Positions 4,281-30,375 of a stretch of 32,000 nt of DNA are shown piece after piece. The notes below the pieces were generated by a model. That model saw only the letters and a list, made by a program, of their open reading frames with translations, did no database searches and was not told the DNA's origin. The position numbers and the translations under genes were made by a program. The stretch spans positions 240,001 through 272,000 of the forward strand of contig JBAZVE010000001.1 of assembly GCA_041661045.1 (NCBI GenBank). The letters run 5' to 3'. This stretch comes from Candidatus Saccharimonadota bacterium (GTDB taxonomy: Bacteria; Patescibacteriota; Gracilibacteria; UBA1369; 2-02-FULL-48-14). The stretch's first letter is position 1, and the number at the start of each line of letters is the position of its first letter.

Positions 4281-4299
4281 GAGAAGGGTGTCTAATTAA

Positions 4300-5697
<1,398 letters not shown>

Positions 5698-12968: not shown

Positions 12969-12996
12969 ACATAAGACCGTACATAACTACTTCCTT

Positions 12997-15905: not shown

Positions 15906-17492
15906 ATGCCGCCTCTCACTCAAAACTGTCGACTGACCGGGAAACCCTTCACGGTGAGTGAATGGGAACAGGAGTTTTGTGCGCGGATGGGTGTGCCGGT
16001 GCCTTCGCTTTGTCCGGAGGAGCGGCAACGGAAAAGACTGGCGCACAGGAATGAACGGTCGCTATATAAACGGGGCTGTGATTTGTGTAAAAAAGTGATG
16101 ATCGCCATTTATCCGGAGTCTGCGCCCTTCCCCGTGTATTGCAGCGAGTGTTGGTGGGGCGATGGATGGGATCCCATGGATTACGGACAAGCGTTTGATT
16201 TTTCCAAACCTTTTTTTGATCAATTTAAGGAAGTGTATTTTCGGGTGCCGCGGGTGGGTGTGCTCAGTAGAAATGGAGAGAACAGCGAGTACACAAACTG
16301 TGAAGAGGGATCGAAAAATTGTTACCTCACCTTTGCCGGAGGATATTCGGAGGATTGCTCCTATTGTTATTTGAGCATCTCCTGCCGGGACTGTGTGGAC
16401 TGTTCACTCATCAACCATTCTGAGCTCTGTTACGAAGGCTTGGAACTCGACAATTGTTACCACTGTTTTTATCTCCAAAATTCACAAAACTGCAGTGATT
16501 GTGTGCTTGGGGTAGACCTCGTCTCCTGTAAAAATTGCTTTGGCTGCAAGGGGCTCCGGAATAAAGAGTTTTATATTTTCAATGAACCGTATTCAAAAGA
16601 GACTTATGAGGCAAAAATCGCCGAGTTGGATCCGCGTTCACCGGAAGTTCAGGCTCAGTTTTCTGCCCTTTGCTTGTCTATACCGAATAAATTTGCCCAC
16701 CTCAATAATTGTGAGAATTGTACGGGGGATTATATATTAAATAGTCAAAATTGTTTCAACTCTTTTGACATCAAAAATGGGAAGGATCTTATGTATGTCT
16801 ATTTAGGGCAAGATTTAAAAGATGCTTACGACTCTAATGTGATCTTCATCGGCACAGAGCTGATTTATAATTCTCACAGCATCTGCGTGAATTGTTTTCA
16901 AGTGCGTTGTTCCAACTTTTCCTGGAATATTTCTTTTTCGGATTACTGTGATTTCTGCCATTATTCAAAGAATTTGTTTGGGTGCGTTGCATTGAAGCGG
17001 AAAGAATATTGCATCCTCAATAAACAGTATTCAAAGGAGGAATACGAGGTGCTTGTGCCCCGCATCATCGAACACATGAAACAGACCGGCGAATGGGGTG
17101 AGTTCTTTCCTTATTCCGTTTTTGCCTACAATGAAACTTTGGCGCAGGAGTATTTTCCTCTGAGTAAAGAAGAGGCCGTGGAGCTTGGCTACCAATGGAA
17201 AGAACCCGTTGCTCAGGAGTTCGTGGCTGTCCCCGGTGCAAAGACCTGTGAGACCTGTAGAAAGGTGTTCAAATGCATTCAAAAAGAATTGGATTTTTAC
17301 AAGAAAATGAGCTTACCTGAACCGCAGAAATGTCATGATTGCCGACATAAGGCTCGAATGATGGGGCACAATCCACGAGAACTCTGGGCACGACAATGCA
17401 TGAAGTGTTCACGGGACATTCAAAGCAGCACTTCCCCAGATCGGGCGGAACCTGTGTACTGCGAGAAGTGCTATCTTGCTTTGATTTATTGA
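15906..17492 (+). CDS. Cys-rich double-zinc-ribbon / Cys-ladder family protein, paralog 1 of 8 (function unknown)
   Basis: 528 aa, ~42 Cys by my count. Alignable end to end with the seven other copies. The C-terminal module has four intact C-x2-C knuckles (CETC, CHDC, CMKC, CEKC). Confidence 0.9.
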   Translation: MPPLTQNCRLTGKPFTVSEWEQEFCARMGVPVPSLCPEERQRKRLAHRNERSLYKRGCDLCKKVMIAIYPESAPFPVYCSECWWGDGWDPMDYGQAFDFSKPFFDQFKEVYFRVPRVGVLSRNGENSEYTNCEEGSKNCYLTFAGGYSEDCSYCYLSISCRDCVDCSLINHSELCYEGLELDNCYHCFYLQNSQNCSDCVLGVDLVSCKNCFGCKGLRNKEFYIFNEPYSKETYEAKIAELDPRSPEVQAQFSALCLSIPNKFAHLNNCENCTGDYILNSQNCFNSFDIKNGKDLMYVYLGQDLKDAYDSNVIFIGTELIYNSHSICVNCFQVRCSNFSWNISFSDYCDFCHYSKNLFGCVALKRKEYCILNKQYSKEEYEVLVPRIIEHMKQTGEWGEFFPYSVFAYNETLAQEYFPLSKEEAVELGYQWKEPVAQEFVAVPGAKTCETCRKVFKCIQKELDFYKKMSLPEPQKCHDCRHKARMMGHNPRELWARQCMKCSRDIQSSTSPDRAEPVYCEKCYLALIY

Positions 17493-17537: not shown

Positions 17538-19208
17538 ATGGCCGCGTGCAGGCAATGCAATCAAACCTTTGAAGTCGCTGCGGAGGACCTTGCTTTTTAT
17601 GACAGTATTTCGCCAAGTTTTGCTGGGAAAAAATATCCTATTCCGGCTCCAAAAATGTGTCCGCAATGTCGTCTTCAGCGGCGGATGGCGTTTAGGAATG
17701 AACGCAAGCTTTACACACGGAAAAGTGATTTGAGTGGACGGAGTATTATCAGCAATTATTCTCCTGATAAGCCTCATAAGATATATGACCAGGATGAATG
17801 GTGGTCTGACGCATGGGACCCGCTCGGTTATGGACGAGATTTTGATTTTAGTAGAACCTTTAATGAGCAGTTTAGGGGATTGGTGGAGACCGTGCCTCAG
17901 GTCTCTCTCGTCAATAAAAGTGGTGAGAACAGTTATTATACTAATTTTGCAATTTTTGTACGCAATTGTTATCTCGTATTTGGAGCGGGCAATGATGAGG
18001 ACTGTATGTATGGAAAGTACATTGTGGACAGCAAAGACTGCGTGGACAATTTGGCCATTTACTCCTGTGAACTCTGTTATGAGGGGGTTGCCTCCGAAGG
18101 CTGCTATCAATGCCGGTACTTTTTGAATTCTCGAAATTGTAGCGACTGTTTGATGGTGGATTCCTGCCTTTCATGTAAAAACTGTATCGCCTGCTTTGGC
18201 TTGGTCTCAAAGGAATATTATTATTTGAATACCTTTGTTGGGAAGGAGCGTTTTGAAGAGTTGAAAAAGGAATATGAATATTTAACGGCTAAAAAAGTGG
18301 CCTTTTTGCGGGAGCAGTTGGATGTGCTGAAGGGCCCTTTGCCCCACCGACAAGCGCAAACTTACGGGTGTGAGAATTGCACGGGAGACAATGTCTACAA
18401 CTCTAAAAACTGCCACCATGTTTTTGATGCCAAGGAATGCGAAGATTCTAAATATTTAAACTTTTCCCCAAAAACAAAGAATTCTTATGACATTATTTTT
18501 TGCGCTCCCGACGGAGTAGAGTTTTCTTACAATTTGTGCTCTGTGTTGAGTTTGAAAAACGCAATGAGTAATTATTTGGTTTGGAATGGCAGTGACATTT
18601 ATTATTCTCTCTCCTGCCACAGCTGCAATTCCATCTTTGGCTGCGTGGGCCTCCACAATAAACAGTACTGCATTTTTAATAAGCAGTATTCAAAAGAGGA
18701 GTATGAAATTTTGGTCGGCCGCATTATTGAACACATGCAAAAAACAGGAGAATGGGGAGAGTTTTTTGACTATTCCGTTTCGCCTTTTGGCTACAATGAG
18801 ACGGTGGCGGAGGAGTACTTTCCCCTGAATAAAGATCAAGTGCTGGCTTTGGATGCCAAGTGGCATGAAGAGTGTGACGAACAAATAGATGGAGCGCCTG
18901 TAGATGAAATTCCGGAGGATATTCGGTCTGTGGATGATGAAATTCTAAAAAAAGTACTCCACTGTGAAGTGAGCGGACGCCCTTATAAAATCACGCCCCA
19001 AGAGTTGAAATTTTATAGAAACATGAAATTGCCGTTACCACGGCGCCACCACGATGAACGGCATTTGAATCGCATCGCGCTACACAATCCCTACACCCTT
19101 TTTGACCGGTCTTGTGGAAAGTGTGGCAAAGCTATCCAGACTACTTACACTGAGCTTAGGGCAAAAGTGGTGTACTGCGAGGCCTGTTATTTGGCTAAGG
19201 TTTACTAA
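17538..19208 (+). CDS. Cys-rich family protein, paralog 2 of 8
   Basis: 556 aa. MAACRQCNQTFEV..CPQCRLQRRMAFRNERKLY; conserved block CIFNKQYSKEEYEILVGRIIEHMQKTGEWGEFF; C-terminus ..CGKCGKAIQTTY..VVYCEACYL. Confidence 0.9.
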   Translation: MAACRQCNQTFEVAAEDLAFYDSISPSFAGKKYPIPAPKMCPQCRLQRRMAFRNERKLYTRKSDLSGRSIISNYSPDKPHKIYDQDEWWSDAWDPLGYGRDFDFSRTFNEQFRGLVETVPQVSLVNKSGENSYYTNFAIFVRNCYLVFGAGNDEDCMYGKYIVDSKDCVDNLAIYSCELCYEGVASEGCYQCRYFLNSRNCSDCLMVDSCLSCKNCIACFGLVSKEYYYLNTFVGKERFEELKKEYEYLTAKKVAFLREQLDVLKGPLPHRQAQTYGCENCTGDNVYNSKNCHHVFDAKECEDSKYLNFSPKTKNSYDIIFCAPDGVEFSYNLCSVLSLKNAMSNYLVWNGSDIYYSLSCHSCNSIFGCVGLHNKQYCIFNKQYSKEEYEILVGRIIEHMQKTGEWGEFFDYSVSPFGYNETVAEEYFPLNKDQVLALDAKWHEECDEQIDGAPVDEIPEDIRSVDDEILKKVLHCEVSGRPYKITPQELKFYRNMKLPLPRRHHDERHLNRIALHNPYTLFDRSCGKCGKAIQTTYTELRAKVVYCEACYLAKVY

Positions 19209-19225: not shown

Positions 19226-20848
19226 ATGCAGAGCTGTAAGCAGTGTCAAAACCCTTTTGAAGTCACCCCCACCGAGCGTGAATTCCTTAAAAAAGTGGCT
19301 CCAGTTATTGGCGAGCGGCGCTTTGAGATCCCGGAACCCTCCCTTTGCGCTGATTGTCGGCGACAAAGACGATATGCGATTCGAAACGACAGAATTCTTT
19401 ACAAACGGAAATGTGATAAGACCGGTAAGCCGATTGTTTCCGTACACCACGCTGATAAGCCCTTCCCCGTCTACGCCCTGGATGTGTGGTGGAGTGATGC
19501 GTACGATCCCCTGAGCTATGGTCGGGATTTCGACTTTTCCAGGACCTTTTTTGATCAGTTTCATGAGCTATCGACCGCGGTTCCTCGGGCGGCATGCATT
19601 GTTGTGAATTCCGAGAACTGTGACTACACGGCCTTTACTTTACAGTCTCGCAACTGTTTTCTTTCTTCTCGCTTGGCCGACACGGAAGATATTTATTACA
19701 CTTACTTGGCGCTCAAGAGTCGTTCTTGCTTTGACGGGTATAACTTAGCCGAGTGTGAACTTTGTTACGAGTGCATCGATTGCCGCAAATGCTATCGGTG
19801 TTTTTACACGGAAAATTCCAGAGGCTCTTTTAACCTCTTGTTTTGTGCCGATATGTCCGGCTGCAACGACTGTTTTGGCTGTGTGGGTTTGGTGCAAAAA
19901 AAATATCATTTCTTCAATCAGGCCCTTTCAAAAGAAGAGTATGAGAAACGAGTTCAGGAATGGTGGGATGGTTCTCATGAGGCGTTTGTGAAATGCCGGG
20001 CTGCTTTTGAAGCTTTTAGGAAAACCGTTCCGGTTCGTGCAACGGTGGTCCTCAACTCTGAGTATGTGCAAGGAAGTCATATTTTTGACAGTAAGAATGT
20101 GAACAATTCCTTTGATATCGTGGGCTGCGAAGATGTCCTTGATTGCACTCAAACTGAGTTTAGCAAAGACTGTATGGATACCGATTTTGCTTATGAAGTC
20201 GAGCTTCTGTACGAAGTGCTTTCAGGTGGGAAAAGCTCCAGAAGCCTTTTTTCTTTCGCTTTGGTTGGTGGCAGCAGTGAGACGATCTATTCCTGTTATT
20301 GCAGTAACGGTAACCAAAACCTTTTTGGGTGCATCGGTATGAAGGGCAGCAAGTATTGCATTTTCAATAAACAGTATTCAAAAGAGGAGTATGAGATTTT
20401 GGTGCCGCGCATCATTGAGCACATGCAAAAGACCGGAGAATGGGGTGAGTTTTTCCCGGTGGAGCATTCCACAATGGCCTACAACGAGTCTGTGGCACAA
20501 GAACGGTTCCCTCTCACGAAAGAAGAAGTCTTGCAGCGAGGGTGGAGTTGGTACGATGCTCCTGAAAGTGCGGCGGCCCAGGCTGAGGGAGACAATGTGC
20601 TCACCTGTGAAGTGAGTGGCCGAGCTTTCCGTTTGATCCCTCAGGAACTCAAATTCTACAAAGAGATGAACTTACCTTTGCCCACGAAGTGTCCAGATGA
20701 ACGCCATGCCGACCGTTTGGCAAAACGCACCCCTTATCGCTTACGCCCTACCCGGTGCCGGAAATGTTCCACGGAGATATTGACCGACATCCCCACGGAT
20801 GAAAAAATGATTTATTGTGAAGCTTGTTATTTAGCCGAAATCTACTGA
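19226..20848 (+). CDS. Cys-rich family protein, paralog 3 of 8
   Basis: 540 aa. MQSCKQCQNPFEV..CADCRRQRRYAIRNDRILY; CIFNKQYSKEEYEILVPRIIEHMQKTGEWGEFFP; ends CEACYLAEIY. Confidence 0.9.
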   Translation: MQSCKQCQNPFEVTPTEREFLKKVAPVIGERRFEIPEPSLCADCRRQRRYAIRNDRILYKRKCDKTGKPIVSVHHADKPFPVYALDVWWSDAYDPLSYGRDFDFSRTFFDQFHELSTAVPRAACIVVNSENCDYTAFTLQSRNCFLSSRLADTEDIYYTYLALKSRSCFDGYNLAECELCYECIDCRKCYRCFYTENSRGSFNLLFCADMSGCNDCFGCVGLVQKKYHFFNQALSKEEYEKRVQEWWDGSHEAFVKCRAAFEAFRKTVPVRATVVLNSEYVQGSHIFDSKNVNNSFDIVGCEDVLDCTQTEFSKDCMDTDFAYEVELLYEVLSGGKSSRSLFSFALVGGSSETIYSCYCSNGNQNLFGCIGMKGSKYCIFNKQYSKEEYEILVPRIIEHMQKTGEWGEFFPVEHSTMAYNESVAQERFPLTKEEVLQRGWSWYDAPESAAAQAEGDNVLTCEVSGRAFRLIPQELKFYKEMNLPLPTKCPDERHADRLAKRTPYRLRPTRCRKCSTEILTDIPTDEKMIYCEACYLAEIY

Positions 20849-20854: not shown

Positions 20855-22504
20855 ATGCCCGATATTCATCTCACCTGCCGCCTCACAGGAAAACCTTTTA
20901 CGGTTAGTGAGTGGGAGCAAGAACATCTTAAAAAATTTGATGCCCCTTTGCCGGATTTGTGCCCGGAGGAAAGACATCGCAAACGACTTTCCCATCGCAA
21001 TGAACGACGGCTTTATAAGAGAAATTGCTCCATGACGGGGGAGCCTGTAATTTCCGTGTTTTCGCCTGATAAAGATTTGCTCGTTTACCGCACGGAGGCA
21101 TGGAGAGGGGATGCCTGGGATGGACGCGATTATGGGATCGACTATGATTTCTCGAAACCTTTTTTTGAACAATTTGCGGCGTTGCAACGCATGGTGCCTC
21201 ACATGGCACTATTGAATGTGAATGGAGAGAATAGCGAGTATTGCAACATTACAACTGGGAATAAAAATTGTTATCTGGTCTTTGGTGGTGACTTTTGTGA
21301 AGACTGTAGATATTCGGTCTTTAGTATGCACTGCCGAGATGTCTCTGATGTGTATTGGGTGAATGGTTCGGAGCTCGTTTATGACACCTTAGACTCTGAG
21401 AATTGTTATAATATACGCTACTCTCAAAAGGCTTTTGGATGCAGGGATAGCAGTTTTTTGTTTGAGTGTCGCAATTGTGAAAACTGCTTCGGATGTGTGG
21501 GTTTGGTTGGAAAGAAATATCATATTTTCAACAAACCTTATCCCCCTGAAGAGTACAAAGAAAAGATCAAAGCCATGCGTTTGGACACCTGGAGTGGGGT
21601 AGAGAATATGCGAAAAGAATTTACTGAGTTCAAACTACAATTTCCTCATCGTTATGTGAAAATTATAAATAGTGAACACTGCACGGGTGATGACATTTCC
21701 GGAGCTAAGAACTGCGAGAATTGTTTTGGTATTTATGGGCCTGCGGAAGATTTGAAGGATATCTTTTTAGGGGGCTGGGGACTCAATGATTCCGCAAGCT
21801 CCGACCATATCGGTCATAAGGCTGAGCTTTTCTACGAAATGTTGGGCTCTATTGATGGTTCTCATTGTGCTTTCTGTACATTTTCTTGGAGTTCTCAAGA
21901 CACTTTTTATTGTAACTTTGTTCTCAACTCCCACGACCTCTTTGGCTGCAGTAATTTGAAGCGGGCGGAGTACTGCATCCTCAATAAGCAGTACAGCAAA
22001 GAAGATTATTTCGCTTTGCGGGGACGGATTGTGGAGCACATGAAATCTACCGGTGAATGGGGGCAATTTTTCCCTGCAAAAAACTCCCTTTTTGCTTACA
22101 ACGAGACAGTGGCTCAAGATTATTTCCCTCTCACAAAGGAGGCGGCTTTGGCTCAGGGATTGCGGTGGTTTGATGAAGAGAAACGGGCACTCACCCCCAA
22201 CGATTTACCTGACTCTATCCATGACATTACGGATGAAATTTTGAGCAAAACCCTGGTCTGTGAAAAAACTGGGCGACCTTACAAAATCATTCCAAGCGAG
22301 CTCAAGCTTTATCGTCAGATGGAAATCCCTATTCCACGGTATGCCCCCGAAACACGCAATGAAATCCGTATTGCTTCCCGAAATCCCATTCAAACATGGA
22401 CCAGGCAATGCGCAAAATGTGCGAAACCCATTGAAACCACTTATGCCCCCGATCGCCCCGAAAAAGTGTACTGTGAGGCCTGTTATTTAGCCGAAATCTA
22501 CTGA
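20855..22504 (+). CDS. Cys-rich family protein, paralog 4 of 8
   Basis: 549 aa. It starts 6 nt after paralog 3. The N-terminal CRLTGKPFTVSEWEQE is identical to paralog 1. It ends CEACYLAEIY. Confidence 0.9.
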   Translation: MPDIHLTCRLTGKPFTVSEWEQEHLKKFDAPLPDLCPEERHRKRLSHRNERRLYKRNCSMTGEPVISVFSPDKDLLVYRTEAWRGDAWDGRDYGIDYDFSKPFFEQFAALQRMVPHMALLNVNGENSEYCNITTGNKNCYLVFGGDFCEDCRYSVFSMHCRDVSDVYWVNGSELVYDTLDSENCYNIRYSQKAFGCRDSSFLFECRNCENCFGCVGLVGKKYHIFNKPYPPEEYKEKIKAMRLDTWSGVENMRKEFTEFKLQFPHRYVKIINSEHCTGDDISGAKNCENCFGIYGPAEDLKDIFLGGWGLNDSASSDHIGHKAELFYEMLGSIDGSHCAFCTFSWSSQDTFYCNFVLNSHDLFGCSNLKRAEYCILNKQYSKEDYFALRGRIVEHMKSTGEWGQFFPAKNSLFAYNETVAQDYFPLTKEAALAQGLRWFDEEKRALTPNDLPDSIHDITDEILSKTLVCEKTGRPYKIIPSELKLYRQMEIPIPRYAPETRNEIRIASRNPIQTWTRQCAKCAKPIETTYAPDRPEKVYCEACYLAEIY

Positions 22505-24105
22505 TGCAGAAAGTATGTAAAAAGTGCAGCGGGCCGTTTGAAATCACTCTTGAGGATGAAGTGTTTTTGAAGAAATTTGAAGTGCCTGCGCCTTCCCTTT
22601 GTCCCGAGTGTCGTAACCAAAGACGATGGACCTTTCGCAATGATCGGAACTTTTATAAGCGGGATTGTGACTTGTGCCATGCCGTCATGATTAGTATTTA
22701 TTCAAAAGAAAAACCTTTTCCTGTTTACTGCAAAGACTGCTATCTCAGTGACGCCTTCGATCCTTTGAAGTACGGCGTTGATTATGACCCCACTCGATCT
22801 TTTTTTGAACAATTTGGTGAGATGCGGGCTCGAGTTCCCCGCATGGCCAGTTACCAAACCCAAAGTGAGAATTCCGACTACACCGTGCACAGTGCTAAAA
22901 ACAGAAACTGCTACATGGGGAACTCTTTCCGTGAGTGCGAGGATGTTTTTTATTCTGATTTTGCTCAGTTTTCAAAGGACAGCATGGATCTTTATATGTG
23001 CAGTAATGTGGAACAATGCTACGACTGCACGGATAGCGACCAATGTTACCATTCCATTCACTTGGAGAATTGCATGAGCACGAATTTTTCTTGTCTTTGT
23101 TTTGATTGCCGCAGCAGCAGCAACTTGATTGCCTGCGTTGGGCTCCGAAGAAAAGAATTCATGGTCTTGAATAAACCTGTTAGTAAAGAGGAATTTGAAC
23201 AGACTTGGACCCGCTTCAATACAGATCCCACTTTCCGTAAAGATTTGGAGGAAAAATATAAGCAACTGCGCCTAGAAACTCCCGTAAAAAGTTTTTGGGA
23301 GAAGAATAGTGAGAATTGCAGTGGGAATTACATCGTGAATTCCAAGAATGCTCAGCACTGTTATAACAGCCGCAGCGTTGAGGATTCTCGTTATAATTTT
23401 GATGTGATTGATGTGAAAGATGCGATGGATATCACTCGCGCCGCGGGTGGTGAATTTTTGTACGAAGTTCATGCCATGATCGATCTTTTCTTCAGTAAAT
23501 TTTGTAACCTTTGCTACCAGTCGAGCGAGCTTGAATACTGTGACAACTGCCAGGCTAGCAAAAAGAGTTTTGGCTGCATGAGCCTTAAGGGGCACAGCAA
23601 CTGCATCCTCAACAAACACTATTCTCCGGAGGACTATGAAAAGCTCCGTGATCAAATAAAAGCGCAAATGTTGGCCGATTCCGAGTATGGCGAATTTTTT
23701 CCGTCTTCTCTCTCGGTTTTTGCCTACAATGAAAGTAAGGCTCGGGACTTTTTCCCGCTGACTCGTGAGCAAGCACTCGCTCAAGGTTACCAATGGCGTG
23801 ATCCGGAGGAAGCGGCCCGCCCCGTGCAGGGTGCTCAAGTCTCCGCAGACATTTTGGCGTGCGAAGGCTGTGGTAAAAATTATCGCATCATCCCTCAAGA
23901 GCTCGCGTTCTATCGCAAAATGGGGCTGCCCCTTCCTCACTTTTGTTTTGACTGTCGTCACCTCAAACGAGTGGCGCTTCAAAATCCTCAACGGCTCTAC
24001 TCGCGCGCGTGCGCAAAATGCTCGGCTCCCTTTGAAACCACCTACGCCCCCGACCGTCCCGAAAAAGTGTACTGCGAAAAGTGCTACTTGGAGACCGTGG
24101 GCTAG
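22504..24105 (+). CDS. Cys-rich family protein, paralog 5 of 8 (most divergent; all eight terminal knuckles intact)
   Basis: 533 aa. The start overlaps the paralog 4 stop (TGATG). Knuckles are CKKC, CPEC, CDLC, CKDC at the N-terminus and CEGC, CFDC, CAKC, CEKC at the C-terminus. Confidence 0.9.
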   Translation: MQKVCKKCSGPFEITLEDEVFLKKFEVPAPSLCPECRNQRRWTFRNDRNFYKRDCDLCHAVMISIYSKEKPFPVYCKDCYLSDAFDPLKYGVDYDPTRSFFEQFGEMRARVPRMASYQTQSENSDYTVHSAKNRNCYMGNSFRECEDVFYSDFAQFSKDSMDLYMCSNVEQCYDCTDSDQCYHSIHLENCMSTNFSCLCFDCRSSSNLIACVGLRRKEFMVLNKPVSKEEFEQTWTRFNTDPTFRKDLEEKYKQLRLETPVKSFWEKNSENCSGNYIVNSKNAQHCYNSRSVEDSRYNFDVIDVKDAMDITRAAGGEFLYEVHAMIDLFFSKFCNLCYQSSELEYCDNCQASKKSFGCMSLKGHSNCILNKHYSPEDYEKLRDQIKAQMLADSEYGEFFPSSLSVFAYNESKARDFFPLTREQALAQGYQWRDPEEAARPVQGAQVSADILACEGCGKNYRIIPQELAFYRKMGLPLPHFCFDCRHLKRVALQNPQRLYSRACAKCSAPFETTYAPDRPEKVYCEKCYLETVG

Positions 24106-24121: not shown

Positions 24122-24940
24122 TCACTGCGCCACAAAGGCCGTGGCTCCGAGCCACGCCAGGTTAAAAATGGCCCGTTGAGTGCGTGCGTACACGGCGGAC
24201 TCAATGTGCATTCCCATCCGTTCATCCGGATTTAAGGACATTATGGCGACCTTGTTTTCGTAGATGGAAATTTGGTTTTCAAAATTGAATTCTTTTGGAT
24301 TCACAAAGAGAATTTCCACCAATTCCTGCGGATATTTTTTGGGGTAGAAGCGTTTTACGAATTGCCGTGCCTGCTCTGTGGAAGGCGAAAGTAAGCGCAC
24401 CTTGATGTGATTTTTGACGAGTTTCTCCGTATAAGTGGGGAGATAATCGGGGAGGAGCTCACCCAGGGCCTCCAGGTTGGTGTAACCCAACACCTCCGAT
24501 TTTGCCTCGAGCGTTTGCTCAAAAATGGTCTTGATACCCTCCAGTCCTTCGTACGAGCGGATGATGGGCTTAAAAGCCAGCGCATTGGTGATGGAGAGCA
24601 GCTCGGGAAGGAGCTTTTTTGCGCTTTGATACTGCGTTTCCATTTGGTTCACCAAGACTTGGGGGGGCTCCGCTACAAAAAACTTCACTTTGCCCTTAAA
24701 ATTGGCGGTCACAAGGCCGTGTTTTCGTAGGTTTTCCAAGACATAATAACAGTTTACGCGCGGGATTTTTGCTTGGCTCGCGATGGTGCTTGCAAAAGAA
24801 CCCCCAAGCTCCAAAACCGTGAGGTAAACCTGAGCTTCCTCCTCCGAAAGGCCGAATTCTTGGAGTTTTTCCTGCAGCAATTGGCTTTGTTGTAAAATAA
24901 TTTCTACAACTAATCTAACCTGTAATTTACTATTTTTCAA
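24122..24940 (-). CDS. TrmB-family transcriptional regulator (winged HTH plus C-terminal domain)
   Basis: FGLSEEEAQVYLTVLELGGSFASTIASQAKIPRVNCYYVLENLRKHGLV is the typical TrmB N-terminal HTH. Convergent with paralog 5 (16-nt gap). Confidence 0.8.
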   Translation of the reverse strand: MKNSKLQVRLVVEIILQQSQLLQEKLQEFGLSEEEAQVYLTVLELGGSFASTIASQAKIPRVNCYYVLENLRKHGLVTANFKGKVKFFVAEPPQVLVNQMETQYQSAKKLLPELLSITNALAFKPIIRSYEGLEGIKTIFEQTLEAKSEVLGYTNLEALGELLPDYLPTYTEKLVKNHIKVRLLSPSTEQARQFVKRFYPKKYPQELVEILFVNPKEFNFENQISIYENKVAIMSLNPDERMGMHIESAVYARTQRAIFNLAWLGATAFVAQ

Positions 24941-25329: not shown

Positions 25330-26106
25330 ATGACACCCGATACCCCTATCGCCATTATTGGACTTGGACATCTTGGCAGCAGTATTGCAAAACGGCTCAT
25401 TAGAAATGGACACAAGAAACTTGTTGCTACTCGACGAAATGAAAACGAACTCCAAGCACCTAAAGATCTGAGTCCACATTTAGTCCTGACGACCGACAAT
25501 GAAATGGCCGTGAAAAATGCTGCCGTGATTATATTGGCGACTAAAGAAGCAAGCTTTGAGGACTTTGCAGCTGCCATTAAAGCCGGCCGACAAGGGAAGC
25601 TCTTAATCAGTCTTGGTCCGACCTTCAAACTGAACAAGCTCGATGAACTATTTGGTGGGCACAATGTTCGCTTGATCACTCCGGTAGACGCTAGAAATGA
25701 TGTTATTTGTTACTCAACGGATTCTTTTTGTTCTGATGAAGACGAAAAAGTTCTCCACTATATTTTTGGAGAGTGTATTCAAAAAGTCCCCGAAGAAGAG
25801 ATGCCTCTCGCAACGGCTTTCGTGCTTTTCAGAGGAGTACTCAATTCATTCCTCGATCCCTTCATTCGGGTTGCCGCTCAAGAGGGACTTGATGCACAAA
25901 GCTCACAGAAAATAATGGGGGAAATGCTTATTTCTTGTGGTGAGGAGCTTAGGGATGGAATCTCCTCTGAGAAGCGCCTTGAAAATGCGAGTGGTGGCTT
26001 TAATGAAAAGAGCTTCACCATGCGGCTTTACAAAGAGCTGGAGCCAGCTCAAGTGCTTTTAAAAGACCTGTTTGAGAAGGTTTGTAAACAATTTAAGAAT
26101 CTATGA
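25330..26106 (+). CDS. Pyrroline-5-carboxylate reductase-like NAD(P)-dependent oxidoreductase
   Basis: ORF 25300..26106, trimmed to ATG 25330, 1 nt after the csaA stop. It has the Rossmann motif IAIIGLGHLGSSIAKRL and a ProC-like length and C-terminal helical domain. Assignment to the ProC family is by resemblance only. Confidence 0.7.
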   Translation: MTPDTPIAIIGLGHLGSSIAKRLIRNGHKKLVATRRNENELQAPKDLSPHLVLTTDNEMAVKNAAVIILATKEASFEDFAAAIKAGRQGKLLISLGPTFKLNKLDELFGGHNVRLITPVDARNDVICYSTDSFCSDEDEKVLHYIFGECIQKVPEEEMPLATAFVLFRGVLNSFLDPFIRVAAQEGLDAQSSQKIMGEMLISCGEELRDGISSEKRLENASGGFNEKSFTMRLYKELEPAQVLLKDLFEKVCKQFKNL

Positions 26107-27764
26107 CTCCGATCACAAAAACTTGTACGGTCAGCGGAAAACCCTTCATCATCTCTGATGAGGATCAAGCCTACTACACAAAGATTGGCGTCCCCATGCC
26201 TTCGCTATGTCCCAAAGAACGGCAACGACGACGCCTCAGCTTTCGGAATGAGCGCAATCTTTATCATCGCAAATGCGATCTTACGGGACACCAAATTATT
26301 TCCAACTATTCACCGGATAAGATGTTTAAGGTTTATGAGAAAGACTCCTGGTGGTCTGACGCCTGGGATCCATTGAGTTATGGAAGGCCTTACGATTTTT
26401 CCAGATCTTTTTTCGACCAGTTTCATGAGCTACAACTCGTGGTTCCTCGCATCAATCTTTTTTCAAAGGGAGGTGAGAATGTTGCTTATACAAATCATGC
26501 TACTTACAACAAGGACTGCTATCTTCTTTTTAACGCCACACATTGTGAAGGGGTTCATTACTCGACAAATTATGTCCTCAACTGCAAGAACTGTGTCGAC
26601 TGTTACTCCATCGACCGTTGTGAACTTTTGTACAATAGTGTTTTTTGTGAACAATGCTTTTCATCCACCGACTTGGTGAGTTCCAAGAATTGCTCTGAAA
26701 GTGCTTTTCTTTATGACTGTAGAAATTGCCAAAACTGTTTCATGTCTTATGGCCTAAGAAACAAGAAGTTTTGTATTGGGAATAAACAATACTCTGAAGG
26801 TGAGTATCGGGAACAAATGAAGAAATATGATCTTGGAAGTTATAAAGTCTATAATGAATTAAAAGAAGAGTTTCGTAAAATGTTGAGGGATTCTGCTGTC
26901 CATCGCTTTGCGATTATAGATTTGAGTGAAGACTGCTCCGGAGACTATATTTTTGAGTCTCAAAATACAAAGGAGTCCTTTTACGCGATCAAATGCAAAG
27001 ATTCCAAGTTCATTTATGACGGCTACGAGAACATTGACTGTTATGATGTTTATGAAAGTGCGCTTCAATGTGAAAGGCAGTATGAATGTTACGCCTGTAA
27101 TTACACAAAATATTCCTACGGCTCACATGTGTCTCACGAGAGCTATAATCTCTACTACAGTGATCACTGTTTCAACTCAAATGACTTATTTGGATGTATC
27201 GGTTTAAAGAAAAAAACCTACTGCATTTTGAACAAACAGTATTCCAAAGAAGAGTATCTTGAACTTTTCCCTCGCATCGTTGAACACATGAAACAAACCG
27301 GAGAGTGGGGAGAGTTTCACCCTTCGACACTTTCTCCTTTTGCCTACAATGAATCTGTTGCGCAAGATTTCCTACCTCTTTCCAAGGAAGAAGTTTTAAG
27401 TCGAGGACTTGTTTGGAAGGAAAAGTTGGACGATGGTGCGGCTTATGCGGGACCCGTGATATCCATCCCAGACAATATTAAAGATGTTGAACCCAGTATT
27501 TGTGAGGCTATCTTGCAATGTGATGTCACCGGAAAATATTTCAAAATCATTCCACAAGAGCTAGCGTTCTATAAACAGCTTGGCCTTCCCATCCCTCGCC
27601 AGTGCTTTGAAGAACGCCACAAGGGCCGCACGCAATTCAGGAATCCACGGATTTTGTGGGACCGCACCTGCATGCACTGTAACGCTCCCATCAAAACCAC
27701 TTACTCTCCGGAAAGACCCGAGAAAGTCTACTGCGAAGCCTGTTACTTAAAAACCGTTTATTGA
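26103..27764 (+). CDS. Cys-rich family protein, paralog 6 of 8
   Basis: 553 aa. ATGA overlap with the preceding oxidoreductase gene. Contains CILNKQYSKEEYLELFPRIVEHMKQTGEWGEFHP and ends CEACYLKTVY. Confidence 0.9.
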   Translation: MTPITKTCTVSGKPFIISDEDQAYYTKIGVPMPSLCPKERQRRRLSFRNERNLYHRKCDLTGHQIISNYSPDKMFKVYEKDSWWSDAWDPLSYGRPYDFSRSFFDQFHELQLVVPRINLFSKGGENVAYTNHATYNKDCYLLFNATHCEGVHYSTNYVLNCKNCVDCYSIDRCELLYNSVFCEQCFSSTDLVSSKNCSESAFLYDCRNCQNCFMSYGLRNKKFCIGNKQYSEGEYREQMKKYDLGSYKVYNELKEEFRKMLRDSAVHRFAIIDLSEDCSGDYIFESQNTKESFYAIKCKDSKFIYDGYENIDCYDVYESALQCERQYECYACNYTKYSYGSHVSHESYNLYYSDHCFNSNDLFGCIGLKKKTYCILNKQYSKEEYLELFPRIVEHMKQTGEWGEFHPSTLSPFAYNESVAQDFLPLSKEEVLSRGLVWKEKLDDGAAYAGPVISIPDNIKDVEPSICEAILQCDVTGKYFKIIPQELAFYKQLGLPIPRQCFEERHKGRTQFRNPRILWDRTCMHCNAPIKTTYSPERPEKVYCEACYLKTVY

Positions 27765-29410
27765 TGGCACCACTTACTAAAAACTGTGCGGCGAGCGGAA
27801 AATCTTTCGTTATCTCCGATGAAAATCAAGCTTTTTATGCAAAGATGGGCTTACCCTTGCCCACCCTGTGCCCGGAAGAACGGAGGCGAAGAAGGTTTTC
27901 TCACCGCAATGAACGAAACCTTTATCACCGCAAATGCGATCTTTCAGGGAAGAGCATTATTTCTAATTTTGCACCTGATGGGGACTATAGTGTTTATGAG
28001 CACGGGGAGTGGTGGAGTGATCAATGGGATGCTAAAACTTATGGACAGGATTTTGATTTCAACCGTCCATTTTTTGAGCAGTTTGAGGGTCTGAGCAAGA
28101 AAGTTCCTAAACTGGCCATGTCCGTTTGGAACTCGGAAAATAGCAGTTACTGCAACTATGTTGGGAATGTGAAAGACTCGTATTTGATCTTTGGATCGGT
28201 CTACAGCGAAAAGTGTTTTTACGGCTCGCCTTACTACTCTTTTGACTGCTTGGATACCCTGGTTGTGCGCGAGTGTGAGCACTGTTACGAGTGTGTGGAC
28301 TCTCGAAAACTATACGAGTGTTTCTACTGCCAAGACTGCCACAGTTCGCGAAATTTGATCTATTGTTATGACCTCCAAGCTTGCAGCGATTGCATTGCTT
28401 GTGCAGGCCTGCGGAACAAGCAGTACTGCATTTTTAATGAGCAACTCAGCAAAGAAGAGTATGAGAAACGAAAATCTGAATTTAAATTGTGGGATCCAAA
28501 AATTCAAACGCTTTTAAAGGCCAAACTTGCGGCACTCAAACTTCAAATCCCACATCGCTATATGCAGAGTCGACAGGTAGAAAATGTGAGTGGAAACTAT
28601 GTTTTCCAATCTAAAAATATCGAGAATTCTTACTTCACTGATCGGGCGGAAGACTGTGCTTATTGTATGCAAGTGGTGGACTTAAAGGATTGTTATGATA
28701 ATAATTTCACCGAGGAGAATGAACTGTGTTACGAGTACCTTGGCGCCTACCAAAATCAAAAGCTGCTTTTCTCAAAGTTCTGCAATAAAGTTTTCGAAAG
28801 TGCTTACTGCAACAGTTGTTTCAATTCTCATCACCTTTTTGCTTGTGATGGAATCCGCAATTCGTCTTATTGTATTTTCAATAAACAGTATACAAAAGAG
28901 GACTATGAGGCTTTGGTGCCAAAAATAATTGAGCACATGGGAAAGACCGGCGAATGGGGCGAGTTCTTCCCTGTTACTGGTTCTCCTTTTGGCTACAATG
29001 AGACCGTGGCCAATGAGTACTTCCCTCTTTCAAAAGAAGAAGCTTTAGCTCAGGGCTACCATTGGAAAGAGGACGACGAAAGCAATAGCTATCACGGTCC
29101 GATAACGGAGTTCTCTGAAAACATTGAAGAAGTGGGTGATGATATTTTACAAAAAATTCTGACCTGCGAAGTAAGCGGCAACTTGTACAAATTGATTCCA
29201 CAGGAGTTGGAATTCTACCGCCGAATGAAGTTGCCCATTCCCAAGCGAGCCCCCAATGAACGACATAAAGACCGCTTGGCTATGCGAAATCCACAGACCC
29301 TTTGGCCCAGGAATTGTGAAGGATGTACGATGGCTATAGAAAGCACCTACGCCCCCGAACGACCGGAAAAGGTGTATTGCGAGGCGTGTTATTTAAAGAT
29401 GGTGTATTAA
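27764..29410 (+). CDS. Cys-rich family protein, paralog 7 of 8
   Basis: The ORF track starts at TTG 27761. I prefer ATG 27764, which overlaps the paralog 6 stop as TGATG, the same junction as paralogs 4/5. Contains CIFNKQYTKEDYEALVPKIIEHMGKTGEWGEFFP. Confidence 0.9.
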   Translation: MAPLTKNCAASGKSFVISDENQAFYAKMGLPLPTLCPEERRRRRFSHRNERNLYHRKCDLSGKSIISNFAPDGDYSVYEHGEWWSDQWDAKTYGQDFDFNRPFFEQFEGLSKKVPKLAMSVWNSENSSYCNYVGNVKDSYLIFGSVYSEKCFYGSPYYSFDCLDTLVVRECEHCYECVDSRKLYECFYCQDCHSSRNLIYCYDLQACSDCIACAGLRNKQYCIFNEQLSKEEYEKRKSEFKLWDPKIQTLLKAKLAALKLQIPHRYMQSRQVENVSGNYVFQSKNIENSYFTDRAEDCAYCMQVVDLKDCYDNNFTEENELCYEYLGAYQNQKLLFSKFCNKVFESAYCNSCFNSHHLFACDGIRNSSYCIFNKQYTKEDYEALVPKIIEHMGKTGEWGEFFPVTGSPFGYNETVANEYFPLSKEEALAQGYHWKEDDESNSYHGPITEFSENIEEVGDDILQKILTCEVSGNLYKLIPQELEFYRRMKLPIPKRAPNERHKDRLAMRNPQTLWPRNCEGCTMAIESTYAPERPEKVYCEACYLKMVY

Positions 29411-29571: not shown

Positions 29572-30327
29572 TTAAATCCTCTCCCACATCCAGTTGAAGA
29601 GGGTGAGGAGAGATTCGTGTAGGTATTTTTCACGGATCTTGATACCCACTTCTTTTTTAGGATCGTAGCTGTTTAGGATGATGTAGTCGTTCACCAAAAT
29701 GATGTCCGACAAAAAAGAGCTTTCCTTCGCAATTTCCTTGATTTGATGATTGGGATTTTTGACCTGACTTTTGTACCAATCTGTGGTGGGGCCGGCGACT
29801 AAAATTTCACGGATGTTGGCCTTGCTTTGGGCGGTGGCTTGCAAAAAATCCTTCACCAGATTTTTGAGGCGCTCATTTGGAATAGCGATTTGAGGGTTGA
29901 AGAAAGCATTGAAATCCCCACTGATCAAGGTTTGAGAGAGTTGCTGATATACGGCTTCCATGGATTCAAATGTAGAAATTTCAAAAGCTCCGAAGTCCTG
30001 TTTCTTGGGTAAAAGCTCTTTCAAATGAGTTTGAAGCAAGCGCGTGGCACTATGAACTTCTTCAAACTGCTCACGAGCACGACCTTCCAAGACTTTAGCC
30101 ACCATTTCTGGAGGTAAACAGTTGAAGTAACTGGTGGACCCACGCTTTTTGCGAGTTACGATCCCAAAATGAACCAAGGCGTCCAAAGCAGCGTACACGG
30201 TAGTCCTTTTGACTTGCAGTTGTTTGGCCACTACGCTGGCGATGCCCTCCCCTCGTTCAAACAAGTGAAGAAACACTTTTTGCTCCATGGAGTTGAGACC
30301 GCAGGTTTGAAGTAGATTGTGGAGCAT
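29572..30327 (-). CDS. TrmB-family transcriptional regulator
   Basis: ORF 29572..30357 (TTG), trimmed to ATG 30327 (MLHNLLQTCGLNSMEQKVFLHLFERGEGIASVVAKQLQVKRTTVYAALDALVHFGIV, a TrmB-type HTH). The start choice is uncertain. Divergent from paralog 8. Confidence 0.75.
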   Translation of the reverse strand: MLHNLLQTCGLNSMEQKVFLHLFERGEGIASVVAKQLQVKRTTVYAALDALVHFGIVTRKKRGSTSYFNCLPPEMVAKVLEGRAREQFEEVHSATRLLQTHLKELLPKKQDFGAFEISTFESMEAVYQQLSQTLISGDFNAFFNPQIAIPNERLKNLVKDFLQATAQSKANIREILVAGPTTDWYKSQVKNPNHQIKEIAKESSFLSDIILVNDYIILNSYDPKKEVGIKIREKYLHESLLTLFNWMWERI

Positions 30328-30375
30328 GGTTGATGTGGCTATCCGCCTTGTTGTCAAAATTATTTTGACAATATT

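What the first reader, a model, noticed from the sequence alone, without database searches (positions are those of the whole stretch)
16250..17060. Central region is an internally duplicated Cys-ladder with ~11-12 aa periodicity, each half closed by the same cap motif
Seen in sequence (paralog 1, and equally in the others): after GENSEYTN the chain shows short repeats with Cys at a fixed position: SKNCYLTFAGG / YSEDCSYCYLSI / SCRDCVDCSLIN / HSELCYEGLEL / DNCYHCFYLQN / SQNCSDCVLGVD / LVSCKNCFGC. It ends in a cap, CFGCKGLRNKEFYIFNEPYSKETYE. A helical linker follows. A second, more degenerate ladder then follows (NCENCTGDYILNSQNCFNSFD ... ICVNCFQVRCSN ... YCDFCHYSKN), ending in the same cap, LFGCVALKRKEYCILNKQYSKEEYE.
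All eight copies contain both caps. Examples: paralog 7 has CIACAGLRNKQYCIFNEQLSKEEYE and LFACDGIRNSSYCIFNKQYTKEDYE; paralog 8 has CFGCVNLRNKKYCIYNQQYSREEYL and LFGCVGLRKATYCILNKQYSKEEYE.
The overall architecture is therefore ZnR module - (ladder+cap) x2 - GEWGEFFP domain - ZnR module, which is pseudo-symmetric. Inference: one Cys or C-x2-C per ~11-12 residues resembles a solenoid-type fold in which successive coils stack Cys, as in 12-residue Cys-ladder beta-helices. For a cytoplasmic protein this could form metal ladders rather than disulfides. The first ladder is the most variable part between paralogs.
Basis: partly seen in the sequence, partly recalled or inferred. Interest (0 to 1): 0.65.

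Follow-up and report, generated by a model that had tools for sequence, protein, structure and literature searches.

The report
Duplicated cysteine-cored 12-residue beta-solenoid
The centre of each of these eight paralogous proteins from a tiny candidate-phyla-radiation bacterium is two copies of a narrow protein coil with 12 residues per turn; its cysteines fill the core instead of holding metals, and the family is large, uncharacterised and has no fold match among solved structures.

Summary
In paralog 1, residues 115-385 (window 16250-17060) are an internal duplication: profile-profile comparison of the two halves gives probability 99.9%, E 1.5e-33. Each half ends in the same cap, and all eight paralogs carry both caps.

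The period is exactly 12, riding on a 3-residue in/out pattern. In paralog 1, 14 of 15 ladder-1 Cys share one mod-3 phase. Coevolution analysis on 419 sequences puts 50 of the top 150 couplings at separation 12, where about 1 is expected. With separations 11-13 the count is 74, and 69 of these lie inside the two ladders. AlphaFold2 (pLDDT 87.8) predicts short periodic strands. Foldseek finds no solved structure at E below 0.001.

The metal-ladder inference is not supported:
- Ladder Cys columns alternate with Ser, Leu, Val and Ile, not His, Asp or Glu.
- They co-occur only weakly (phi at most 0.38). The terminal zinc sites in the same proteins are all-or-none (phi 0.89-1.0).
- Cross-core i,i+6 Cys pairs, the beetle antifreeze disulfide position, are depleted.

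The ladders are the least conserved regions between paralogs, after the linker helix, but the most conserved between orthologs. This suggests specificity surfaces.

The family is large, restricted to the Peregrinibacteria/Gracilibacteria lineages, and has no Pfam model for its centre. Its function remains inferred.

The parts
15906..17492 (+). Paralog 1, the whole CDS (528 aa), cytoplasmic by sequence: no signal peptide or membrane segment.
   Evidence: ORF list and translation. AlphaFold2 full-length model: pLDDT 87.8, pTM 0.87.
15906..16160 (+). N-terminal double Zn-knuckle module (residues 1-85), treble-clef/zinc-ribbon type. In paralog 1 the first site has lost two ligands (C8, C36 only). 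The second site is intact (C58, C61, C79, C82).
   Evidence: Homologous to the C-terminal module: hhalign E 2.9e-32. All-or-none Cys co-occurrence: phi 0.98-1.00 for 61/79/82 and 0.89 for 11/39. Pfam zf_Tbcl hits in paralogs 3 and 8.
16161..16256 (+). Conserved Trp/Phe/Asp-rich helical connector (residues 86-117; WWxDxWD...FFEQF...VP).
   Evidence: Nearly invariant W83, D86, W88, G94, D98, F99, F103, F104, Q106, F107, P115. Helices in the model.
16257..16526 (+). Solenoid 1 (residues 118-207): about 7.5 coils of 12 residues. Consensus coil: [C/S]-[E/K]-[D/N]-C-[Y/F]-x-[C/S]-x-[D/N/G]-[C/L/S]-x-[N/G]. Inward positions are 1, 4, 7 and 10.
   Evidence: Stacked-coil table and per-position composition. 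39 of the top 150 DCA couplings are at separation 11-13 in this region plus cap 1. 55 of 96 positions have their strongest partner at +/-12.
16527..16619 (+). Cap 1 (residues 208-238): C-x-N-C-F-G-C-x-G-L-R-N-K-x-Y-x-I-F-N-x-x-Y-S-K-E-E-Y-E. It comprises the last coil, a hairpin and the start of a helix. It holds the best-conserved Cys of the ladder (C208, C211, C214).
   Evidence: Conservation. pLDDT 93-98. C208/C211 is the only obligately paired Cys pair in the ladder, odds ratio 28. K/E charge swaps at 209/221.
16620..16700 (+). Helical linker between the two halves (residues 239-265). This is the most variable segment of the protein and is slightly basic.
   Evidence: Helix 246-258 in the model. 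Entropy 2.96 and paralog identity 0.23. Net charge +2.
16701..16967 (+). Solenoid 2 (residues 266-354): a homologous, more degenerate ladder with small insertions. It has the same 12-residue pitch.
   Evidence: hhalign against half 1. 30 of the top 150 DCA couplings are at separation 11-13 here plus cap 2; 43 of 99 positions have their strongest partner at +/-12. pLDDT is lower, 68-75, and the domain-only model differs here.
16968..17060 (+). Cap 2 (residues 355-385): x-N-L-F-G-C-x-G-L-K-x-x-x-Y-C-I-L-N-K-Q-Y-S-K-E-E-Y-E. C360 and C369 are nearly invariant.
   Evidence: Conservation. Aligned to cap 1 by hhalign. K/E swaps at 355/367 mirror those at 209/221.
17061..17240 (+). Conserved helical domain (residues 386-445; IIEHM..TGEWGEFFP..S.FAYNET.AQ..FPL).
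   Evidence: Nearly invariant H390, M391, G395, E396, W397, G398, F400, F401, P402, Y408, N409, E410. No detectable homology to the N-terminal connector.
17241..17489 (+). C-terminal double Zn-knuckle module (residues 446-528). Both C4 sites are intact in paralog 1.
   Evidence: Sub-threshold Pfam PF23477 and TIGR04272 hits. Homology to the N-terminal module. Cys 451/476/479 co-occurrence phi 0.72-0.95.
17538..19208 (+). Paralog 2 (556 aa).
19226..20848 (+). Paralog 3 (540 aa).
20855..22504 (+). Paralog 4 (549 aa).
22504..24105 (+). Paralog 5 (533 aa).
26103..27764 (+). Paralog 6 (553 aa).
27761..29410 (+). Paralog 7 (549 aa).
30471..32000 (+). Paralog 8. It runs off the window and ends 78 nt beyond it. 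The family profile starts matching at 30471, so that is the likely start, not the upstream ATG at 30432.
24122..24940 (-). TrmB-family HTH regulator interrupting the array.
   Evidence: Pfam TrmB, E 9.7e-16. The same regulator type is next to family members in 22 of 79 loci from other genomes.
29572..30357 (-). Second TrmB-family HTH regulator, divergent from paralog 8.
   Evidence: Pfam TrmB, E 8.2e-12. 5 of the genome's 12 TrmB genes lie within 2 kb of a family copy.

Best explanation
Residues about 118-385 of each paralog form two homologous, narrow beta-solenoids. Each has about nine coils of exactly 12 residues, counting the cap coil. Each is closed at its C-terminal end by a conserved cap: a last Cys-rich coil, a hairpin and the helix NKQYSKEEYE.

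Within a coil every third residue (positions 1, 4, 7, 10) points into a core too small for large side chains. That core is filled with Cys, Ser and occasional Leu, Val or Ile. Positions 3, 9 and 12 are Asp/Asn/Gly turn residues. This is the geometry of the 12-residue beetle antifreeze beta-helix.

Unlike that protein, this one is cytoplasmic. The cysteines act mainly as compact core-packing residues stacked coil on coil. They are not ligands of discrete metal sites and not obligate disulfide partners.

One half of each coil (positions 1-6) is conserved family-wide. The other half (positions 8-12) differs between paralogs yet is conserved between orthologs. The solenoids are therefore most likely paralog-specific recognition surfaces carried on a constant scaffold. 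Homologous zinc-knuckle modules at both ends provide a common partner- or nucleic-acid-binding function.

Shown here: the duplication, the 12-residue coil contacts, the buried character of the Cys columns, their lack of site-like covariation, and the ortholog/paralog contrast. Inferred: free-thiol state, handedness, the recognition role and the identity of the ligand.
For: Duplication: hhalign E 1.5e-33.

12-residue coils:
- DCA gives 50 of the top 150 couplings at separation 12, against about 1 expected.
- Separations 11-13 account for 74, with 69 inside the ladders. 55 of 96 and 43 of 99 ladder positions couple most strongly at +/-12, against 1 of 37 in the helices.
- Surface i,i+12 pairs show K-E/E-K and R-D swaps (209/221, 355/367, 334/346).
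- AlphaFold2 predicts short strands spaced by 12, with pLDDT 72-98 across ladder 1 and its cap.

Buried Cys columns: composition is C/S/L/V/I/A, with D/N/G in the next phase.

Cys are not metal-site or disulfide partners:
- Ladder phi is at most 0.38. Terminal Zn sites in the same proteins give 0.89-1.00, serving as an internal positive control.
- i,i+6 Cys-Cys pairs are depleted (odds ratios 0.11-0.44, p down to 1e-20). Small-large combinations (S-C, C-L) are enriched, indicating volume compensation.
- i,i+12 Cys-Cys pairs are modestly enriched, odds ratio up to 6.3, consistent with stacking.

One variable face: entropy is 1.2-2.2 at coil positions 1-6 and 2.7-3.3 at positions 8, 9, 11 and 12.

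Specificity signature: ladder 1 identity is 0.32 between paralogs and about 0.82 between orthologs, the highest of all segments, across 10 ortholog pairs covering all 7 complete paralogs.

Geometry precedent: TmAFP inward residues C2, S5, C8 and A11 (PMC8038014). The only PDB sequence hit of the ladder profile is TmAFP 1EZG, at a non-significant E of 3.8.
Against: - No coordinates were available, so the solenoid topology, its handedness and S-S distances in the model were not inspected.
- Foldseek finds no significant PDB match. The best hits are left-handed beta-helices at E 0.09-3.
- The domain-only model is less confident (pLDDT 78.6). It gives long strands in ladder 2, unlike the full-length model.
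- The Cys co-occurrence statistics ignore phylogeny.
- DCA used an effective depth of only about 390 sequences for 285 columns.
- Sequence cannot show the redox state. The enriched i,i+12 Cys stacking and the obligate C208/C211 pair leave room for some metal or redox chemistry.
- The recognition function has no direct evidence.
Confidence: 0.65

Rival explanations
1. Metal ladder. The inward Cys of successive coils ligate a row of Zn, Fe-S, Cu(I) or similar centres along the solenoid axis. The family would then act in metal storage, metal sensing or electron transfer.
For: The domain is 8.7% Cys. There are up to four inward Cys per coil at C-x2-C spacing. Stacked i,i+12 Cys pairs are enriched, with odds ratio up to 6.3. 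C208/C211 are co-lost, odds ratio 28. Position 223 is Cys, His or Tyr and couples to C214. The protein is cytoplasmic and carries genuine Zn modules, and neighbouring genes encode ferredoxin-dependent enzymes.
Against: No ladder column except 139, 208, 211 and 214 exceeds 80% Cys. Replacements are Ser, Leu, Val, Ile and Ala rather than His, Asp or Glu. Within-coil Cys co-occurrence is near independence (phi at most 0.38), whereas the real C4 sites in the same proteins are all-or-none. Cross-core Cys pairs are anticorrelated. Cap 2 keeps only two Cys.
Confidence: 0.1
2. Disulfide-braced solenoid of the beetle antifreeze type. Each coil would be cross-linked by an i,i+6 disulfide, implying an oxidising compartment or export.
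For: It has the same 12-residue period and the same inward positions as TmAFP. The only PDB sequence hit is TmAFP.
Against: i,i+6 Cys-Cys pairs are never enriched and are mostly depleted. There is no signal peptide or membrane segment. Zn-knuckle modules point to a reducing cytoplasm. There is no TCT motif. The E-value of 3.8 is not significant and the match carries high compositional bias.
Confidence: 0.05
3. Not a solenoid. The region would be a string of small independent Zn-knuckle or zinc-ribbon-like hairpins (C-x2-C ... C-x2-C), as in DnaJ-type or furin-like Cys-rich repeats. One homolog was annotated 'Epidermal growth factor receptor'.
For: There are many C-x2-C motifs. The termini are real Zn ribbons. 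A source gave one homolog that name. Foldseek found no significant solenoid match.
Against: Couplings at i,i+12 run continuously along all coil positions, including non-Cys surface positions with charge swaps. Cys are not conserved as sets of four. Cys columns are replaced by hydrophobic residues. The weak Foldseek hits are all beta-helices, not zinc fingers, for this region.
Confidence: 0.08
4. The periodicity is a by-product of low-complexity, Cys-rich composition with no defined fold.
For: pLDDT is only about 70-75 in parts of both ladders.
Against: 14 of 15 Cys share one phase in a single sequence. The duplication has E 1.5e-33. Position-specific conservation holds across more than 2,300 cluster representatives. 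Ortholog identity in ladder 1 is 0.82. The coevolution signal is strong.
Confidence: 0.02

Closest known systems
Beetle hyperactive antifreeze proteins (Tenebrio molitor TmAFP, PDB 1EZG; DhbAFP)
   Same: Tandem 12-residue coils form a very narrow beta-helix. Every third residue points inward, giving four small inward residues per coil, with Cys and Ser prominent in the core. A capping element closes the end. It is the only PDB chain picked up by the ladder profile. The geometry is described in PMC8038014.
   Different: TmAFP is secreted and eukaryotic, with 7-11 coils. It is braced by a C2-C8 (i,i+6) disulfide in every coil and carries a TCT ice-binding face. Here there is no signal peptide and no TCT motif. 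i,i+6 Cys pairs are depleted, and Leu, Val and Ile are tolerated in the core. The solenoid is duplicated and embedded between Zn modules. Sequence similarity is not significant (E 3.8), so this is an analogy of fold type, not membership.
Left-handed beta-helix (hexapeptide-repeat) proteins: LpxA, LpxD, GlmU, gamma-carbonic anhydrase
   Same: They are cytoplasmic beta-solenoids. They are the top, though insignificant, Foldseek hits for both models.
   Different: They have 18-residue triangular coils with an aliphatic core. Here the coil is 12 residues by coevolution. There is no Pfam Hexapep hit. Foldseek E is at least 0.09 and TM-scores are at most 0.21.
Pentapeptide-repeat proteins (MfpA, Qnr)
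   Same: They are cytoplasmic, acidic, quadrilateral beta-solenoids used as binding surfaces or DNA mimics (my knowledge). The two solenoids here are also acidic, with mean net charge -5 and -6.
   Different: They have 20-residue coils and a Leu/Phe core, with no Cys. There was no sequence or fold match. The functional analogy is speculative.
zf_Tbcl (PF13451) and zf_Tbcl_2 / CxxC-x17-CxxC (PF23477, TIGR04272) domains
   Same: The N- and C-terminal modules match these models. Paralog 8 scores 42 bits against a 24-bit cut-off; the others fall below threshold. BFVD hits to phage 'zinc-ribbon domain' proteins superpose at 0.5 Å over about 40 residues.
   Different: These models cover only the termini. 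Nothing in Pfam, NCBIfam or PADLOC covers residues 86-445.
Furin-like / EGF-receptor Cys-rich repeats
   Same: They are Cys-rich with C-x2-C spacing. One homolog carries this name in a public record.
   Different: They are extracellular, disulfide-knotted modules. There was no Pfam furin-like hit. The name is best read as a composition-driven misannotation.

Membership tests
TmAFP-type 12-residue antifreeze beta-helix | Tandem 12-residue coils with inward residues at every third position | tested here: met
   DCA peak at separation 12. C/S/L/V at coil positions 1, 4, 7 and 10. The TmAFP pattern is given in PMC8038014.
TmAFP-type 12-residue antifreeze beta-helix | Conserved intra-coil disulfide pair at i,i+6 in every coil | tested here: not met
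   None of 21 i,i+6 Cys pairs is enriched. Nine are depleted, with odds ratios 0.11-0.44.
TmAFP-type 12-residue antifreeze beta-helix | Thr-Cys-Thr ice-binding face and a secretion signal | tested here: not met
   The consensus coil is [C/S]-[E/K]-[D/N]-C-[Y/F]... with no TCT. The N-terminus is a Zn module, not a signal peptide.
TmAFP-type 12-residue antifreeze beta-helix | Significant sequence or fold similarity | tested here: not met
   hmmsearch E 3.8 with high bias. TmAFP is absent from the Foldseek hit lists.
Hexapeptide-repeat left-handed beta-helix | 6-residue repeat, 18-residue coil, Pfam Hexapep match | tested here: not met
   No coupling peak at separation 18: 0 of the top 150. No Pfam hit. 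Foldseek E is at least 0.09.
zf_Tbcl / CxxC-x17-CxxC zinc-ribbon domains (PF13451, PF23477, TIGR04272) | Paired CxxC knuckles matching the profile above the curated cut-off | tested here: met
   Paralog 8 scores 42.2 bits against a cut-off of 24. The other paralogs score 13-21 bits, below cut-off. Ligand sets are all-or-none across the family. This applies to the terminal modules only.
Discrete Cys4 metal sites (zinc ribbon, metallothionein or Fe-S type) within the ladder | Ligand Cys conserved or lost together, with substitutions limited to other ligands | tested here: not met
   Ladder phi is at most 0.38, against 0.89-1.00 for the terminal sites. Substitutes are S, L, V, I and A. The exception is the C208/C211 pair, odds ratio 28.
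Discrete Cys4 metal sites within the ladder | Measured metal content | not testable with these tools
   This needs ICP-MS or UV-vis on purified protein.
Beta-solenoid (general) | Coils stacked in register in three dimensions, with terminal caps | tested here: inconclusive
   Coevolution and DSSP periodicity fit this, and conserved caps are present. Model coordinates were not obtainable and no solved structure matches.

The most novel reading that the evidence does not exclude
The solenoids are a cytoplasmic, disulfide-free counterpart of the antifreeze-type 12-residue beta-helix. Their stacked Cys columns would form continuous thiol(ate) ladders that reversibly bind soft metal ions or carry sulfur or redox equivalents along the coil axis. 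The expanded, TrmB-flanked paralog arrays would then be a set of sensors or carriers with different surface specificities. They are often followed by a VirD4-like ATPase, so they may be handed to a translocation ATPase in these host-dependent bacteria. The enriched i,i+12 Cys stacking, the obligate C208/C211 pair and the Cys/His position 223 are not explained away by pure core packing.
Probability: 0.08. Interest if true: 0.9.

Novelty: new variant of a known kind. Interest (0 to 1): 0.6.

Why it matters
Candidate-phyla-radiation bacteria have tiny genomes, yet this 1.32-Mb genome holds about 15 copies of the gene, roughly 2% of its DNA. The family has thousands of members (more than 7,600 hits; 2,393 cluster representatives at E below 1e-30). 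No source gives it a functional name, no Pfam model covers its centre, and no solved structure resembles it.

Coevolution shows, without relying on a structure predictor, that the centre is a duplicated 12-residue beta-solenoid. That gives the family a concrete structural hypothesis. It also provides a natural example of an antifreeze-like narrow coil that seems stable without disulfides, which is useful for solenoid design.

The contrast between paralogs and orthologs points to the half-coils that should carry specificity. That makes binding-partner experiments straightforward to design.

Tried and rejected
- Pfam, NCBIfam and PADLOC scans of the paralogs: nothing for residues 86-445.
- Foldseek of the full-length model against the PDB and BFVD, and of the domain-only model against the PDB: no hit at E below 0.001. 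There were only weak left-handed beta-helix hits and, for the termini, phage zinc-ribbon proteins.
- Profile search of PDB sequences: only TmAFP, at a non-significant E of 3.8.
- tblastn against phage genomes: no match.
- The domain-only AlphaFold2 run was less confident than the full-length run. It was inconsistent in ladder 2, so I did not rely on it.
- A recent 'Knotted Solenoid' paper (PMC13123833) was checked. It concerns Brevundimonas proteins related to pentapeptide repeats and is unrelated.
- The Peribacteria genome paper (PMC4736985) describes large secreted Cys-rich proteins of about 1,655 aa with signal peptides, a different set.
- I looked for a full type IV secretion system because a VirD4-like ATPase follows the array. 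No VirB4 homolog exists in the genome, so a classical T4SS-effector reading was dropped.
- The connector (84-125) and the GEWGEFFP domain (383-445) were tested for homology and none was found.
- Model coordinates are not exposed, so Cys-Cys distances could not be measured.
Full report
**What is there.** The window carries eight + strand paralogs of 528-556 aa: 15906-17492, 17538-19208, 19226-20848, 20855-22504, 22504-24105, 26103-27764, 27761-29410, and 30471 to beyond the window end. They align end to end at 40-46% identity. The finding's coordinates, 16250-17060, correspond to residues 115-385 of paralog 1.

**Internal duplication.** I built an 80-sequence family alignment and compared residues 118-240 with 262-385 by profile-profile alignment. 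The result was probability 99.9%, E 1.5e-33, over 118 aligned columns. The alignment runs from the GENSEY/NCENCTGD starts to the NKxYSKEEYE ends. The two terminal zinc modules are also homologous to each other (E 2.9e-32). The connector 84-125 and the GEWGEFFP domain 383-445 are not. The nested architecture is therefore real: Zn module, solenoid, solenoid', unrelated domain, Zn module'.

**Periodicity.**
- Profile self-comparison shows a 3-residue comb. Shift 12 gives the best score among single-coil shifts (1-26) in both ladders; in ladder 1 shift 33 scores slightly higher.
- Family-wide Cys columns in ladder 1 sit at positions congruent to 1, 4, 7 and 10 modulo 12.
- In paralog 1 alone, 14 of 15 ladder-1 Cys share one mod-3 phase (p about 6e-6, my arithmetic).
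- Stacking the sequence in 12-mers gives eight coils in register. The consensus is [C/S]-[E/K]-[D/N]-C-[Y/F]-x-[C/S]-x-[D/N/G]-[C/L/S]-x-[N/G].

**Independent structural test by coevolution.** I ran mean-field DCA on 419 non-identical domain sequences, effective number about 390.
- 50 of the top 150 couplings fall at separation exactly 12, against about 1 expected.
- Allowing 11-13 to absorb small indels in ladder 2 gives 74 of 150. Of these, 69 lie inside the two ladders and cover every coil from 119 to 225 and from 266 to 367.
- 55 of 96 ladder-1 positions and 43 of 99 ladder-2 positions have their strongest partner at +/-12. The figures are 1 of 37 in the helical linker and 2 of 22 after cap 2.
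- Surface pairs show classic compensation: K-E/E-K at 209/221 and at the equivalent 355/367, and K-E/R-D at 334/346.
- Eight top couplings are at separation 6, all between inward positions. This is as expected for residues facing each other across a 12-residue rectangular coil.
- Ladder 1 is gap-free in the alignment, so register slippage does not explain the signal.

**Structure prediction.**
- AlphaFold2 on the 80-sequence alignment gives pLDDT 87.8 and pTM 0.87. It predicts short strands spaced by 12 in ladder 1: 167-170, 179-182, 188-191, 200-203, 209-215 and 221-224. Confidence is very high in both caps (93-98) and lower in the ladders (68-83).
- A domain-only run with 150 sequences was less confident (pLDDT 78.6) and differed in ladder 2.
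- Foldseek against the PDB found nothing at E below 0.001 for either model. The weak top hits are all left-handed beta-helices. BFVD matched only the terminal zinc ribbons.
- A profile search of PDB sequences returned one chain, the Tenebrio antifreeze protein 1EZG, at a non-significant E of 3.8.
- Coordinates are not exposed by the tool, so Cys geometry could not be measured.

**What the cysteines do.** Three results bear on this.
- Composition. The Cys-bearing columns are otherwise Ser, Leu, Val, Ile, Ala and Gly, which indicates buried positions rather than ligand positions. The next phase is Asp/Asn/Gly, which indicates turns.
- Co-occurrence. The terminal modules of the same 272 proteins serve as an internal positive control, because their ligand sets are all-or-none: 61/79/82 give phi 0.98-1.00, 11/39 give 0.89 and 451/479 give 0.95. 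In the ladder the maximum is 0.38, for the stacked pair 187/199.
- Odds ratios. None of 21 cross-core i,i+6 Cys pairs is enriched. Nine are strongly depleted (odds ratios 0.11-0.44, p down to 1e-20), while S-C, C-L and L-C combinations are enriched, indicating volume compensation. Stacked i,i+12 Cys pairs are modestly enriched, with 12 of 21 at p below 0.01 and odds ratios up to 6.3. The only obligate pair is C208/C211 in cap 1 (odds ratio 28). The equivalent positions in cap 2 are mostly Ser and Leu.

These data fit Cys as compact core residues stacked along the coil. They do not fit rows of C4 metal sites, and they do not fit the C2-C8 disulfide that defines the beetle antifreeze helix. [quoted passage not shown] The in/out pattern is shared with this family but the disulfide is not.

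**Variability.**
- Between the window paralogs the least conserved segments are the linker helix (identity 0.23), ladder 2 (0.29) and ladder 1 (0.32). The caps, connector and GEWGEFFP domain are at 0.45-0.59. 'Ladder 1 most variable' is therefore only approximately right.
- Within a coil, positions 1-6 are conserved (entropy 1.2-2.2). Positions 8, 9, 11 and 12 are variable (2.7-3.3), so variability sits on one side of the coil.
- The pattern reverses between orthologs. In ten ortholog pairs covering all seven complete paralogs (60-82% overall identity), ladder 1 is the most conserved segment (about 0.82) and ladder 2 is next among the large segments (about 0.77). The zinc modules are at 0.63-0.74 and the linker helix at 0.56.
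- Regions that differ between paralogs but are held constant within each orthologous line are the usual signature of specificity determinants.
- Both solenoids are acidic, with mean net charge -5 and -6.

**Family and context.**
- The family is very large. Of the 8,000 best candidates, 7,660 scored E at most 0.001 in the 5.8-billion-protein set. There are 2,393 cluster-50 representatives at E below 1e-30 and 583 confirmed loci among GTDB species representatives.
- Named sources are Candidatus Peregrinibacteria, Peribacteria, Gracilibacteria, Abawacabacteria and a few other Patescibacteria bins. All are called hypothetical, apart from a few generic 'zinc-ribbon domain' or 'CxxC-x17-CxxC domain' names and one 'Epidermal growth factor receptor' misnomer.
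- Only 13 of 201 sampled genomes of the phylum have it, usually in many copies.
- The window's own 1.32-Mb, 98.8%-complete genome has eight clustered copies, six dispersed copies and one fragmented copy.
- Tandem arrays are common elsewhere, with up to five copies in a 9.6-kb locus.
- Two neighbours recur across 79 loci from other genomes. A TrmB-family regulator of about 253 aa appears in 22 loci. A VirD4/TrwB/TraG-like P-loop ATPase appears in 12 loci, mostly directly downstream on the same strand.
- In this genome two TrmB genes interrupt the array. Five of the twelve TrmB genes lie within 2 kb of a family copy. A 747-aa VirD4-like ATPase starts 66 nt after paralog 8. The genome has four such ATPases and no VirB4.
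- There was no PADLOC hit for the family and no phage match.

**Interpretation.** The best-supported reading is a cytoplasmic protein whose centre is a tandem pair of capped, 12-residue beta-solenoids with a Cys/Ser/aliphatic core. The geometry is antifreeze-like but not homologous to the antifreeze proteins, and it lacks their disulfides. The solenoids present a paralog-specific face. They are framed by two homologous zinc-knuckle modules that are often degenerate.

The structural statements rest on computation done here. The free-thiol state, the handedness and the recognition role are inferences. A minority possibility remains that stacked thiols do metal or redox chemistry, and only biochemistry can settle it.

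**Verdict.**
- Observation: confirmed.
- Interpretation: solenoid supported, metal ladder not supported.
- Novelty: a new variant of a known fold class in a large uncharacterised family.
- Interest: 0.6.

Noticed in passing
G000:C1:272144-274384 (locus L092:144-2384), 66 nt downstream of paralog 8, just beyond the window end: A 747-aa VirD4/TrwB/TraG-like coupling-type ATPase follows the array on the same strand. Homologous ATPases sit next to family members in 12 of 79 loci from other genomes. The genome has four such ATPases and no VirB4. The ATPase also hits the PADLOC model mad8 (E 2.8e-11).
   Followed up: partly
window 24122-24940 (-) and 29572-30357 (-); also L094:14981-15811 and L095:5974-6753: TrmB-family regulators are themselves expanded, with 12 copies in a 1.32-Mb genome. 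Five of them lie within 2 kb of a copy of the Cys-ladder family. The same pairing occurs in 22 of 79 loci from other genomes.
   Followed up: partly
G000:C1:508656-509896 (locus L095, about 3656-4896, minus strand): A fragmented family copy. The N-terminal module (profile 5-85) and the solenoid region (profile 102-409) match in separate pieces, and the C-terminal zinc module is missing. It is probably a pseudogene or a truncated variant. A TrmB gene lies 1.1 kb away.
   Followed up: no
window 15906-16160 and equivalents in all paralogs: Zinc ligands of the terminal modules are lost in complete sets. Cys 61/79/82 are present together in only 34% of family members, Cys 11/39 in about 60%, and Cys 451/479 in 41%. 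C8, C36, C58 and C448 stay above 90%. Many family members must therefore carry metal-free versions of these knuckles.
   Followed up: partly
window 30432-30470: The longest ORF of paralog 8 starts at ATG 30432 with a hydrophobic 13-residue extension (MTKGLVFVLVTTL). The family profile starts matching at 30471, the second Met, which is the more likely start.
   Followed up: no
window 16572-16589 (residues 223 and 228 of paralog 1): The strongest coupling in the whole domain is between cap-1 positions 223 and 228, with pairings C-Q, H-P and Y-P/K. Position 223 alternates between Cys, His and Tyr and also couples to C214. This is unexplained and could be a small optional metal or hydrogen-bond site in cap 1.
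   Followed up: no
window 12943-14556 (+) and 14557-15801 (-): Immediately upstream of the array lie a secreted protein bearing an SLH domain and a GlmU-like nucleotidyltransferase with a hexapeptide-repeat tail. The latter is a genuine left-handed beta-helix protein. It is unrelated to the family despite the weak Foldseek resemblance of the family model to GlmU.
   Followed up: no
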